DNA of 64,000 nucleotides from Deferrisomatales bacterium. GTDB lineage: Bacteria > Desulfobacterota > Deferrisomatia > Deferrisomatales > JACRMM01. Shown one piece after another: positions 3,001 through 6,000 of this stretch. Location of the stretch: NCBI GenBank assembly GCA_033551855.1, contig JAWSUI010000006.1:11189-75188 (forward strand). The letters run 5' to 3'. The position numbers were made by a program. Each line of letters begins with the position of its first letter. The first letter of the stretch is position 1.

Positions 3001-6000
3001 CGCTTCGAGATCCATCTCGAGCACGGTGGAGGCCAGCACGGGCAACATCCACTCCCTGCCCTGAAGGCCCGCCACTACGAGCAGATCGTGCTCCCCCGAG
3101 GAGAACACGTCGACGGCCCGACCCAACTCGGCGCCGCCCTCGTCCACGACACGGCATCCGAGCACGTCGGCGTGGTAGTACTCCCCCTCCTCCAGGGGAG
3201 GCATCTCACCCCGCTCCACGTAGACCACGGAGTGAACCAGCGCCCGGGCCCCGTCGGCGTCGCCGACACCGGCGAACCTCACCAGGAGGAAACGCCCGTG
3301 GGGGCGAGCCGATTCCACGCCCACAGGGCGCGGCTCGCCCCCACCGCGCCCCAAATACACGCGGGAATAGCCCCGAAGCCCTTCCGGGAGCCCGCTCCCC
3401 ACGTCCACCCGGACCTCCCCCCGCACGCCGTGGGGCCTTCCGACCCTGCCTACGGCAACATACGGGCTGCGAGGCATCGAGCGTCAGACTGAGCGTCTCA
3501 GTCCTTGGCCTGCGCCTTCGCCCAGACGCCCGACTTCCGCAACAGGCTGCGCACCGTGTCGGAGGGCTGTGCCCCCTTGCCGAGCCAATCGAGCACCCGG
3601 TCCTCCTTCACGGTGATGGTCGCCGGCTCGGTCAGCGGGTTGTAGGTGCCCAGAACCTCCAGGAACCGCCCGTCCCGAGGCGCCTCCGAAGCGGCGGCTA
3701 CGATCCGGTAAAAGGGTTGCTTCTTGGCCCCGTGGCGAGCCAGCCTGATCCTCACAGCCATGTACGTGCCTCCGAACAGGTGGTAGCGATCCTCTCGTGT
3801 CGGGCCCCGGAGAGCCCGTGCCTCCCGGTCAGCGGGAGAACGGCAGCTGGCCGAGGCCCCTGCCCATAAGTCTTGTCATCTTGCCCATCGCACCGCCCCG
3901 GCGCCCACCCCCGAGCTGGTTCATCCGTGCGAGCATCTTGCGCGCCTCCTGATAGCGCTTCATCAGGCGGTTGATGTCCTCGACCCGCGTGCCGCTGCCG
4001 GTGGCAATGCGGCGCCGGCGGCTCGCGTTGAGGACCTCGGGCTTGCGTCGTTCCAGAGGCGTCATGCTGTCGATGATCGCGATCACCCGGGTCAACTCCC
4101 CCTCGTCCGGCTTGGCCCCCTTGAGGGCTCCGCCCACGCCCGGCACCATTTTCAGCAGGTCCTCCATGCCGCCCAACTTGCGGACCATCCGGAGTTGGTC
4201 CCGGAAGTCCTCCAGTGTGAACGCGTTCTTCCGGAGCTTCTTCTCCAGGTCCTGCGCAGTCTCCTGGTCGAAGGCCGCCTCGGCCTTCTCGATCAGGCTC
4301 ATGACGTCGCCCATGCCGAGGATCCGCGACGCCATTCGCTCGGGGTGAAAGACCTCCAGGGCCTGGAGCTTCTCCCCCACACCCACGAGCTTGACCGGTT
4401 TGCGGATGACCGACTGGATCGAGAGCGCCGCCCCGCCGCGGGCGTCGCCGTCCAGCTTGGTGAGCACGACCCCCGTGATCCCCAAGGCGGCGTCGAACTC
4501 CCGGGCCACGTTGACCGCATCCTGGCCGGTCATGGCGTCGGCAACCAGGAGGGTCTCCCGGGGTTCCAGGAGGGCCGAGAGGCGACGGAGCTCCTCCATC
4601 AGGACCGCGTCCACGTGGAGCCGTCCGGCGGTGTCGAAGACGACCACGTCGCAGCCGGACCGGCGGGCCTCTTCCCGTGCGTCCCGGCAGATGTCCACGG
4701 GGTCCCGGTACGGATCGGAGTCGAAGACCGGCAGATCCAGCTCGCCGGCCAGCTTCTTCAGCTGCGCGACCGCAGCCGGGCGGTACACGTCGGCCGGCAC
4801 GAGGTACGGGCGGCGCTTCAGGTCCCGCTTGAGGTGCAGGGCGAGCTTGCCGGCCGTGGTGGTCTTGCCCGAGCCTTGGAGCCCCACCAGGAGCACCGAC
4901 ACCGGCGGGGTGCCCTTCAGGTCCAGCGGTGAAAAGTGCTCGCCCATCATCCGGACGAGCTCCTCGTGGACGATTTTCACCACCATCTGCCCCGGGGTGA
5001 GGCTCTTCATGACCTCCTGCCCCAGGGACCGAACCTTCACCGCCTCGACGAAGCCCTTGACGACCTTGTAGTGGACGTCGGCCTCCAGCAGGGCGAGGCG
5101 CACCTCCCGCATGGCCGCCTCGACGTCCCGCTCGCCCAGGCGGCCCTTGGACCGCAGGGCGCCGAAGACGCCAGCCAGCTTTTCGGTAAGGCTTTCGAAC
5201 ATGTACGAGACCCCCGCCCGGGCGCTGCGCGCAGGGCGTCCCCGAGAAATTCGGAAACGCAGACTATAAGGAAGGGGTCTTCAAGGTGTCAAGGGGAAAG
5301 CCCAGAATCCACTGGCTGCCACGTCCTCGGAGCCGGGGAGTCCCTCCGCTCCGCCCCGCAATCCGCAGCCATTCGAAGAGGTGTCCCCGTAGGTTCCGGT
5401 GCGCCGGCCTTCACCCGTTCCCGACGGGCTCGGCGGCCCGGTCGAGGCAGTGCGGGGCTGCGCTCCAAGGCTCCCCGGCCCCGTTCGGATATCTGGTGGT
5501 GGATTTGGGCCGCCCCGTGCGGGAACAGATAGACGATCCGGGGTTGTAGCACATGATCGGTCCGGTTCATGAAGGCTCTGCGGAGGAGCCGACAGGAGAC
5601 GGACGGAATGGCTGCAGGAGACGCGCCAGATGGGATTCGAGGAAGCGTGCCAAGGGTGGCAAGCACGCCGGCTGACGCAGGAGGGGGCGGGACGGCGGGT
5701 GCGACGTCGGATGCCTCGAAGCGGTGCGGCCGTTGTGTCTCTTGCGCCTCACCTCACTGGCTTCCCCCACGCTCAGCGGCCCGGCCGAGGGGCCGCGGAG
5801 CAGCGCTCCGGGTCCTTCGGACCCTGCCCCACGACCCGTCGGGTGTGGGCGCCCCGCCGCAGCAATACGGAACAGCGTTCCAGGTCCCGGTCGCCCTCAC
5901 CCTCAGCGGCCCGCCACCGCGGCGGGGGTGGCGGCCACGAAGCGGTCTCCGGCCTCCAGAGCCGCGCGGCTGTCGAGGATCAGACTCGTGGCCGTGGCAT

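What a model noticed while it worked through the whole genome (the two positions that open the first line are those of the whole stretch)
5203..5902. High-copy 190-nt palindromic mobile repeat inserted 12 nt upstream of promoter -35 boxes
The genome carries about 220 copies (0.8% of its bases) of a ~190-210 nt GC-rich element with long imperfect terminal inverted repeats (ends CCWGRATCCACC...; core GGGGTCCGGGAGCCC / GGGCTCCCGGACCCC). It folds into one long hairpin and matches no Rfam family. Copies are intergenic and strongly polar: one fixed end lies 12-13 nt upstream of a TTGACA -35 hexamer of the next gene, often followed after 16-19 nt by TAnnnT. Those genes include ffh, valS, leuS, proS, rpmH, rpmB, gatC, rimP-nusA, guaB, lexA, rex and tolQ. 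Orthologous promoters in sister species keep the same -35/-10 but often lack the element. It is therefore a mobile (MITE/REPIN-like) element that targets, or is retained at, the posi [...]
Evidence so far: Copy number: blastn of one unit gave 160 hits. Two rounds of nhmmer gave 223 hits at E<=1e-5, 105 of them near full length, 33,942 nt in all; 207 of 223 overlap gene calls by less than 20%. Structure: the consensus folds to -127 kcal/mol, and stem pairs show both-sided changes (GC 42/AU 30; CG 52/GC 38), with 218 compensated cells against a maximum of 168 in 200 shuffles. Polarity: of 140 copies of at least 150 nt flanked by genes of at least 80 aa, 124 have a gene START facing the same element end (75 divergent, 49 co-directional right sense against 10 wrong sense, 6 convergent). 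Promoter motif: TTGACA with at most 1 mismatch lies 8-17 nt from that end in 58 of 168 copies, against 6 of 136 [...]
(Added by a program. Inside this text positions count along the whole contig: contig position 11,189 is position 1 of the stretch shown here. "Call 12" and the like, gene names such as g00115 and contig names such as C1 are that model's own, and its searches are not shown. The text may have been shortened before it was handed on; [...] marks where a part breaks off. The agent that wrote the report below was given it as the finding of a first reader that could run no searches.)

Follow-up and report, generated by a model that had tools for sequence, protein, structure and literature searches.

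The report
Mini-transposon that targets housekeeping promoters
This 208-base repeat is a miniature transposon that lands 13-14 bases upstream of promoters, and it points to a branch of IS1380 insertion sequences in many bacterial phyla that do the same, a trick so far described only for an unrelated transposase superfamily.

Summary
There are 220 hits (133 near full length), modal length 208 bp, with 12-bp inverted ends and a 4-bp target duplication (25 of 75; shuffles at most 4). One end lies 13-14 bp upstream of a TTG-starting -35 box in 74 of 136 copies. The missing transposase link was found: a sister genome has an IS1380-family transposase tail followed by the same end, 13 bp from a -35/-10 promoter. 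Full-length relatives from several phyla do the same: 34 of 42 intact elements (background at most 7), plus two sister sub-clades. They form one clade; other IS1380 elements show no peak (2 of 60 ends). Young copies show it too, so this is targeting, not retention. Guidance by sigma70 RNA polymerase is inferred, not shown. Fixed-distance promoter targeting is published for Mutator-like TnGBS/ISLre2/ISKra4 (PMC3942029); eight literature searches found nothing for IS1380. The scan had not noted this on other DNA. Verdict: new variant, probably a second, convergent origin.

The parts
5302..5509 (+). MITE copy upstream of ffh (208 bp); its promoter-facing (IRR-like) end is at 5302
   Evidence: nhmmer hit; ends; no target duplication; 9 bp from the -35 box instead of 13
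5287..5292 (-). -35 hexamer TTGACA of the ffh promoter
   Evidence: 11 of 12 consensus matches; 0.0 expected in shuffles; TTGAC conserved in 5 of 5 relatives that lack the element
5263..5268 (-). -10 hexamer TATAGT of the ffh promoter (18-bp spacer)
   Evidence: conserved in 5 of 5 relatives
3829..5202 (-). ffh (signal recognition particle protein), the gene read from the targeted promoter
   Evidence: TIGR00959 above cut-off
5715..5839 (+). Degenerate older copy within about 400 bp of extra DNA between the MITE and the upstream gene
   Evidence: weak nhmmer hit E 5.9e-7; this spacer is absent in 4 of 4 relatives with enough upstream sequence
5903..6955 (-). Upstream LysM-like gene; in the two sister genomes it runs up to the ffh -35 box (its stop codon is the TGA inside TTGACA); here its 3' end is replaced after the insertion site
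   Evidence: LysM-like from a weak TIGR02899 hit and recall
8035..8243 (-). MITE copy, outer member of a tandem pair upstream of gatC
   Evidence: the 4-mer CGGA stands at 8031-8034, 8244-8247 and 8456-8459
8248..8455 (-). MITE copy (208 bp) whose promoter-facing end (8455) lies 12 bp from the gatC -35 box
8468..8496 (+). Predicted gatC promoter TTGATC-17-TAGCGT
   Evidence: sequence; the -10 region is conserved in relatives that lack the element; below the threshold of the consensus scan
8564..8854 (+). gatC
   Evidence: TIGR00135 above cut-off
15726..15934 (-). MITE copy facing an unnamed 98-aa ORF; no clear -35 box at 13-14 bp
31586..31802 (+). MITE copy (217 bp) with an intact 4-bp duplication GGGC; TTGACA at 31572-31567 (minus strand) lies 13 bp from its end

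Best explanation
The repeat is a non-autonomous miniature transposon (MITE) moved in trans by a ~500-aa IS1380-family DDE transposase of one particular clade. That transposase cuts the target with a 4-bp stagger at a fixed place, 9-13 bp upstream of the first T of a sigma70-type -35 box (about -48 to -45 from the start site), and sets the end that lies downstream of the transposase gene (IRR) next to the promoter. The host's -35/-10 boxes and the gene they drive are left intact, so the element can pile up next to housekeeping genes at low cost. Shown: mobility (duplications, empty sites), the fixed distance, the polarity, the clade-wide pattern, and its absence in other IS1380 clades. Inferred: (1) that this clade's enzyme moved this MITE (shared ends, duplication length, distance and polarity; no enzyme found in this assembly); (2) that the site is chosen through promoter-bound sigma70 RNA polymerase, most simply by contact with sigma region 4 or the alpha C-terminal domain, which occupy the DNA from -35 to about -50 (established knowledge, recalled); (3) that the long internal palindrome is incidental or buffers read-through.
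For: Mobility: 4-bp duplication in 25 of 75 copies and 20 of 30 in sister genomes; empty orthologous promoters. Link: in G002 an 85-aa IS1380 C-terminus (92% identical to the 504-aa P0124) is followed by an end that begins like the MITE's promoter-facing end, then 13 bp, TTGACG-17-TAAATT and a TPP riboswitch. Autonomous relatives: TTGACA<=1 mismatch at 13 bp from IRR in 33 of 59 metagenome ends (4 more at 14) against 1 of 47 IRL ends; 34 of 42 duplication-intact genome copies have TTG at 13/14 bp on one side, on both sides in only 1, background mean 2.7, maximum 7. Second sub-clade: peak at 14 bp, 12 of 32 IRR and 7 of 24 plus 8 of 21 IRL ends. Third: 13 of 52 IRR ends at 13 bp, 5 at 14. One clade, SH-aLRT 99. 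Other IS1380: 2 of 60 ends at 13 bp, 0 at 14. Whole promoter rather than a bare hexamer: the -10 box follows at 16-18 bp spacing and shifts with the -35 box; where TTG is missing, TAnnnT still sits at 35-37 bp in 12 of 43 MITE ends (background windows 0-4) and at 35-38 bp in 6 of 16 IS ends (background 0-2); intergenic TTGAC sites that do not face a gene start are used 2 of 405 times against 39 of 575 for those that do; duplicated 4-mers show no consensus. Not retention: 28 of 35 copies at least 99% identical to another copy show it; younger and older MITE halves 19 of 31 and 16 of 31.
Against: No transposase of this family was found in the window's own assembly (one E=0.09 hit; 132 contigs). 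The G002 link is a fragment beside an assembly gap. The MITE profile finds no similarity in IS loci beyond the ends (no nhmmer hit at E<=1). No transcript or start-site data, so promoters are predictions; two riboswitches directly behind such boxes are the only outside support. About 40-45% of MITE left ends lack TTG at 13-14 bp. The finding's own copy is at 9 bp and the gatC copy at 12 bp. Within the clade L235 and L238 show no clear -35 box, L254 has one at 10 bp and L016 at 15 bp. The second sub-clade's IRR ends below 50% identity show 0 of 11 at 14 bp. Metagenome contigs show the duplication in only 1 of 46; I put this down to collapsed multi-copy assemblies, untested. All data are surviving insertions, so purging of other sites cannot be excluded completely. 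No protein contact was tested.
Confidence: 0.62

Rival explanations
1. Same element and same enzyme, but the transposase reads the -35-like DNA sequence (TTG...) itself, about one helical turn from the cut, with no part played by RNA polymerase. The -10 box and the facing genes appear because insertions at other TTGAC sites are purged.
For: The distance is set by the -35 box, not the -10 box: the -10 position moves with spacer length. TTG is the strongest signal (81-84% per base at IRR). The same hexamer is used in hosts from many phyla.
Against: Sites without TTG still have a -10 box at the right distance (12 of 43; 6 of 16). Intergenic TTGAC sites without a -10 box that face no gene start were used 0 of 379 times, though some of these may be costly or mis-annotated.
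Confidence: 0.2
2. No protein contact: the transposase captures bent or exposed DNA at the upstream edge of promoter-bound RNA polymerase, so the fixed distance is a footprint edge.
For: Duplicated 4-mers have no consensus. The cut lies near the upstream limit of the polymerase footprint (recalled).
Against: The 1-2 bp precision, the strict end polarity tied to the end's sequence (T at position 16: 119 of 286 ends promoter-adjacent; A: 19 of 147) and the restriction to one clade with its own sequence signature fit an oriented contact better.
Confidence: 0.12
3. Insertion is loosely intergenic, and copies at about -48 are kept by selection because they are harmless there or act as activator sites or insulators.
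For: 0 of 2,766 in-gene TTGAC sites are occupied, which shows that purging does act. Some sites are filled in both G000 and G002.
Against: Harmless positions further upstream are not used. Copies 99-100% identical show the peak (28 of 35). Full-length ISs with quite different internal sequence sit at the same base. Other IS1380 clades in the same phylum show no peak.
Confidence: 0.04
4. The element is a REP/REPIN-like palindrome or a structured RNA spread by a HUH (RAYT/IS200-type) enzyme or by recombination.
For: Long internal palindrome; most sampled copies fold better than shuffles.
Against: A 4-bp target duplication and terminal inverted repeats that match IS1380 ends point to DDE chemistry. 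No Rfam match.
Confidence: 0.02

Closest known systems
TnGBS / ISLre2 (p-MULT 3) and the ISKra4 group (p-MULT 4), Mutator-like DDE elements (Guerillot et al. 2014, PMC3942029; abstract, passages and Discussion read)
   Same: Insertion at a fixed distance upstream of the -35 box of housekeeping-sigma promoters; IRR next to the promoter; elements with near-identical ends insert either way round; contact with the RNA polymerase initiation complex proposed.
   Different: Those insert 15-17 bp upstream and use Mutator/IS256-type transposases. Here the distance is 13-14 bp, the duplication is 4 or 5 bp, and the enzyme is IS1380 family with a Tn5-like fold. The paper's main text never mentions IS1380 (0 occurrences).
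IS1380 family (ISEcp1, ISPme1; NCBIfam NF033539, Pfam PF13701)
   Same: Transposases score above the NF033539 cut-off; ends begin CC..RAT; 4-5 bp duplications; elements of about 1.6-1.9 kb.
   Different: Members outside this clade use AT-rich targets such as TTAA and CTAG, with no -35 peak. ISEcp1 and ISPme1 are described as bringing their own outward promoter (PMC9330008, passages); here the promoter is the host's and lies outside the duplication. No close relative among 72,556 plasmid records: best full-length matches were 28% or lower, plus one 57% half-length match.
Prokaryotic MITEs such as Correia elements (review PMC10969869, passages)
   Same: Short, non-coding, with terminal inverted repeats and duplications, intergenic, folding, high copy number, often upstream of genes.
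   Different: Correia and others are described as AT-rich and as carrying promoters; this one is GC-rich and docks at a fixed distance from a pre-existing host promoter. The passages read describe no fixed-distance targeting.

Membership tests
MITE (non-autonomous DDE element) | Terminal inverted repeats | tested here: met
   12-bp imperfect repeat at 136 left and 118 right ends of 220 hits
MITE (non-autonomous DDE element) | Target-site duplication | tested here: met
   4 bp exact in 25 of 75, shuffle maximum 4; 20 of 30 in relatives
MITE (non-autonomous DDE element) | Short, multi-copy, no transposase inside; empty orthologous sites | tested here: met
   208 bp, 220 hits; empty ffh and gatC promoters in 5 of 5 relatives
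IS1380 family (autonomous partner) | Transposase above the family profile cut-off | tested here: met
   NF033539: P0124 205.9, L046 225.3, P0001 217.4, L465 305.8 bits against a cut-off of 180; the 85-aa G002 fragment 45.7 bits, below cut-off because of length
IS1380 family (autonomous partner) | DDE catalytic residues and RNase H-like transposase fold | tested here: met
   D182, D255 and E399 of P0124 are conserved in 96-100% of rows inside and outside the clade; model pLDDT 80; best fold Tn5 transposase, E 5.8e-7, TM 0.41. Which Asp is catalytic is inferred.
IS1380 family (autonomous partner) | MITE ends match the ends of the autonomous element | tested here: met
   End logos agree over about 16 bp, including the T/A difference at position 16 between IRR and IRL; no similarity beyond the ends
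IS1380 family (autonomous partner) | Cognate transposase present in the same genome | tested here: not met
   No match in G000 with PF13701, P0001 or alignment A1; draft of 132 contigs; fragment present in the sister genome G002
IS1380 family (autonomous partner) | Mobilisation of the MITE by that transposase | not testable with these tools
   Needs a transposition assay
TnGBS / ISLre2 / ISKra4 (p-MULT) | [quoted passage not shown] | tested here: met
   distance 13-14 bp rather than 15-17 bp
TnGBS / ISLre2 / ISKra4 (p-MULT) | Mutator/IS256-type transposase | tested here: not met
   The only NCBIfam family hit is IS1380; the fold search returns Tn5 first. It works like these elements but is not a member.
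REP/REPIN (RAYT-mobilised) | No target duplication of DDE type; linked HUH transposase (recalled) | tested here: not met
   4-bp duplications and IS1380-type ends; a RAYT was not searched for

The most novel reading that the evidence does not exclude
A whole, undescribed clade of IS1380 insertion sequences, found here in Chloroflexota, Acidobacteriota, alpha-, beta- and delta-proteobacteria and Acidithiobacillus, has independently evolved a transposase that docks on promoter-bound sigma70 RNA polymerase and inserts one helical turn upstream of the -35 box. It would be a second origin of polymerase-guided transposition in bacteria, on a Tn5-like scaffold, with a candidate docking segment (P0124 residues about 134-160, just before the first catalytic Asp). 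Its MITEs then mark housekeeping promoters at base-pair resolution in uncultured genomes.
Probability: 0.5. Interest if true: 0.85.

Novelty: new variant of a known kind. Interest (0 to 1): 0.72.

Why it matters
How a bacterial transposase finds promoters has been open since TnGBS was described; a polymerase contact was proposed (PMC3942029). A second solution in an unrelated superfamily, with close non-targeting sister clades as built-in controls, makes the question testable by domain swaps in a single-protein 1.7-1.9 kb IS, and members occur in cultured genera (Xanthobacter L506, Acidithiobacillus L536 and L539). It changes the picture of IS1380 as an AT-rich-target family. It explains how 220 copies can sit next to housekeeping genes. 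It also offers a natural promoter map for uncultured bacteria and possibly a tool that inserts next to genes without breaking them.

Tried and rejected
Transposase in the own genome: none with PF13701, P0001 or A1; the fragment query gave one hit at E=0.09, not followed. Pairs of end motifs 260-5000 bp apart in G000 gave 30 pairs; none had a matching duplication by eye and their ORFs were not scanned. P0001 alone found only itself in genome contigs. Sequence search of solved structures: nothing. Sequencing runs: no RNA holder listed; laying the one DNA run showed no contig that skips the whole element; it may be the source sample. First end-calling for the third sub-clade picked an inner repeat in many loci and was redone with a longer motif; only the second pass is counted. 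In the family survey 88 loci were examined; 31 outside the clade had confident ends and were counted; 13 were in the clade and the other 44 had no confident ends. Two out-of-clade ends have TTG-like hexamers near 13-14 bp (L222, L273), treated as chance in AT-rich flanks. Literature: eight searches on this question and one on MITEs found no report of -35-anchored insertion for IS1380. The library lacks most subscription papers and the ISfinder/TnCentral pages, and I did not open the supplements of PMC3942029, so absence from print is not proven. PMC9208149 (passages) notes only that IS1380 is over-represented between co-oriented genes, and a distance bias for ISLre2 and ISKra4.
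Full report
1. The observation. Starting from window 5291-5520, blastn and three nhmmer rounds on the laid genome gave 220 hits, 133 near full length, 34,906 nt. Six lie in the window, one of them weak. With ends called by motif, 136 left and 118 right ends were found, both in 75 copies; 38 of these are 208 bp and 56 are 207-209 bp. The ends are a 12-bp imperfect inverted repeat. The four bases outside the two ends are identical in 25 of 75 copies; shuffled pairings give a mean of 0.9 and a maximum of 4, and a 3-bp match is not above chance. 214 of 220 hits overlap my gene calls by less than 20%. There is no Rfam match. Folding is strong in most copies but not all (z from -6.6 to -0.4 in 20 sampled of 68) and is not significant for the ffh copy as DNA. 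I did not repeat the covariation analysis.

2. Position relative to promoters. Reading outward from the left end, TTGACA with at most one mismatch starts at 13 bp in 32 and at 14 bp in 11 of 136 copies; no other distance up to 59 bp exceeds 2. TTG alone gives 52 and 22. The right end gives 3 of 118. After removing ends that touch another copy, 120 of 127 left ends face a gene start, a median of 110 bp away, against 62 of 101 right ends. The -10 motif TAnnnT peaks at 35-37 bp when TTG is at 13 and at 36-38 bp when TTG is at 14, so the spacer is 16-18 bp and the distance is set by the -35 box. In the 43 ends without TTG at 12-15 bp, TAnnnT still lies at 35-37 bp in 12, against 0-4 in thirteen control windows. 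Of all TTGAC sites in the genome, the occupied ones are 39 of 575 that are intergenic and face a gene start, 2 of 405 that are intergenic and do not, and 0 of 2,766 inside genes. In three relatives TTG is at 13 bp in 18 and at 14 bp in 4 of 34 ends, from 40 fetched copies, with intact duplications in 20 of 30.

3. Empty sites. The ffh promoter (TTGACA-18-TATAGT, window 5292-5263) is conserved in 5 of 5 relatives, none with the element; in the two sister genomes the upstream gene ends on the TGA inside the hexamer. The gatC region lacks the element in 5 of 5. Conversely, several promoters filled in G001 or G002 are empty in G000 with both boxes conserved (for example L449, L450, L451, L453, L458), and a few are filled at the same base in both (L434, L435); shared descent and parallel insertion were not told apart. 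The promoter is therefore the host's and older than the insertion. The finding's own copy is atypical: 9 bp from the box, no duplication. The last four bases of its end resemble the four target bases of the relatives, so a 4-bp collapse of end and duplication is likely (inference).

4. The transposase. The end motif suggested IS1380 (a recalled lead). G000 has no such gene, but the sister genome G002 has, beside an assembly gap, the last 85 codons of an IS1380 transposase, about 220 bp of trailer, an end that starts like the MITE's left end, 13 bp, TTGACG-17-TAAATT, and a TPP riboswitch. That tail is 92% identical to a 504-aa protein, P0124, one of 293 hits. An alignment of 66 of them retrieved 75 genome loci and 80 metagenome loci (best 80 of 625 and of 580). 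These are elements of about 1.85-1.9 kb. Ends were called for 127 IRL and 137 IRR of 155 loci. In metagenomes, TTGACA<=1 lies 13 bp from IRR in 33 of 59 ends (4 at 14) and from IRL in 1 of 47. In the genome set, mostly Dehalococcoidia assemblies whose two ends are nearly identical, it lies at either end (15 of 66 IRL, 9 of 66 IRR) and the 4-bp duplication is exact in 42 of 62. Of those 42, 34 have TTG at 13/14 bp on one side (background mean 2.7, maximum 7), only 1 on both, and 15 have both boxes (background maximum 2); among the 35 copies at least 99% identical to another copy, 28 show it. These copies come from about a dozen related hosts, so the hosts are not independent, but the insertion sites are. 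The metagenome set shows the duplication in only 1 of 46; collapsed assemblies are the likely cause, untested. The MITE's left end matches IRR and its right end matches IRL at position 16 (T against A), and ends with T16 are promoter-adjacent in 119 of 286 cases against 19 of 147 for A16. The MITE interior has no detectable likeness to the IS.

5. Extent. A survey of IS1380 genes in 401 genomes of the phylum (88 loci examined) showed mostly AT-rich targets. For 31 elements outside the clade with confident ends, 2 of 60 ends had a TTG hexamer at 13 bp and none at 14. The positives fell on one branch (FastTree 0.993; IQ-TREE quick, LG+G4, SH-aLRT 99 on 46 rows, midpoint root; the group was defined from the first tree, so the second confirms the branch and not the trait). 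Two further sub-clades were sampled. The 460-aa group peaks at 14 bp: 7 of 24 IRL and 12 of 32 IRR ends at 50% identity or more, 8 of 21 IRL and 0 of 11 IRR below that, with 5-bp duplications in 4 loci (80 loci). The 426-aa group peaks at 13 bp: 13 of 52 IRR ends plus 5 at 14, 2 of 52 IRL ends, 5-bp duplications in 17 of 41 (80 loci). Record titles include Chloroflexota, Acidobacteriota, Nitrospinota, alpha-, beta- and delta-proteobacteria, Xanthobacter and Acidithiobacillus. Exceptions inside the clade: L235 and L238 without a clear box, L254 at 10 bp, L016 at 15 bp. All four full-length proteins tested pass the IS1380 cut-off. The model of P0124 (pLDDT 80) is closest to Tn5 transposase. The clade shares a G-L-x-x-V helix at P0124 152-160, preceded in two of the sub-clades by an insertion, just before the first catalytic strand; its role in targeting is a guess.

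6. Mechanism. Shown: a DDE-type mobile element; a cut at a fixed distance from -35 boxes; IRR polarity that relaxes when the ends are alike; restriction to one clade. Retention alone cannot give 1-2 bp precision in fresh copies with unrelated interiors. Between guidance by polymerase and direct reading of TTG, the -10 signal at sites without TTG and the neglect of TTGAC sites that face no gene favour the first, but purging of costly insertions could mimic part of this. No protein contact could be tested. I put the full polymerase-guided model at 0.62, direct read-out at 0.20, a footprint-edge effect at 0.12, retention at 0.04; active targeting of some kind is above 0.9.

7. Comparison. Guerillot et al. 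2014 (PMC3942029; abstract, passages, Discussion) describe the same behaviour for TnGBS, ISLre2 and the ISKra4 group: 15-17 bp upstream of sigmaA -35 boxes, IRR toward the promoter, both orientations when the ends are alike, and a proposed polymerase contact. Those are Mutator-like enzymes, and IS1380 is not mentioned in the main text. A review of IS-driven gene activation (PMC9330008; passages) treats IS1380 members as carriers of their own promoters. A MITE review (PMC10969869; passages) and a large IS-gene survey (PMC9208149; passages) gave no such rule for IS1380. Eight searches found none; subscription papers and IS databases were out of reach. The element works like ISLre2/TnGBS but belongs with IS1380.

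8. Verdict. The phenomenon is known in kind; its occurrence in a widespread IS1380 clade, and a 220-copy MITE that maps it, appear new. Earlier notes on this genome describe MITE-like elements as ordinary; none mentions promoters or IS1380, and searches by words and by sequence returned nothing. Novelty: new variant of a known kind. Interest 0.72.

Noticed in passing
window 1077-1199 and 7883-8005; 25 copies in G000: A second, 123-nt repeat family with internal hairpins and one sharp end that is usually followed by an ACTCA-like word; no inverted ends or duplication seen. Five copies (C3, C14, C23, C31, C47) sit at the same central position inside the 208-bp MITE. Possibly an IS200/IS605-type non-autonomous element (recalled resemblance).
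   Followed up: partly
G000, 30 motif hits on many contigs, e.g. C1, C2, C19, C41: A third repeat family that begins right after GGTTC in most hits and cuts off the right end of several MITE copies; the GTTC target recalls IS91-type elements (recalled).
   Followed up: no
G000, 13 adjacent pairs, e.g. window 8035-8455, C2:32440-33288, C47:17385-17978: Tandem stacks of 2-4 MITE copies, several separated by a single 4-bp duplication, as expected if the same promoter is hit repeatedly at the same base; local tandem duplication also fits the near-identical pairs.
   Followed up: partly
L318:2565-2664 and L302: Two clade members lie in records labelled as archaea, yet sit 14 bp from TTGAC boxes; L318 has a full -35/-10 promoter and a SAM-I riboswitch behind it. 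Probably mis-binned bacterial contigs; if truly archaeal they would bear on the mechanism.
   Followed up: partly
window 5903-5925 against L190 and L191: The insertion site lies in the last codons of the upstream LysM-like gene; in G000 the gene has a new, slightly longer C-terminus.
   Followed up: partly
P0124 residues 3-8 and about 345-360; similar words in P0001 and the 426-aa group: Q-x-x-L-x-F-like words at the N-terminus and in the insertion domain resemble sliding-clamp binding motifs (recalled); they also occur outside the clade.
   Followed up: no
window 12979-15249: A 756-aa ORF that looks like a family B DNA polymerase (recalled motifs), next to gatCAB.
   Followed up: no
window 27986-31297: An 1103-aa fusion of a fatty acyl-AMP ligase-like domain with a BioF/serine palmitoyltransferase-like domain, read from a MITE-marked promoter.
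   Followed up: no
G408:C1:596071 and C1:1368217: Two RNA polymerase alpha C-terminal domain hits in one Dehalococcoidia assembly that carries many copies of the IS.
   Followed up: no
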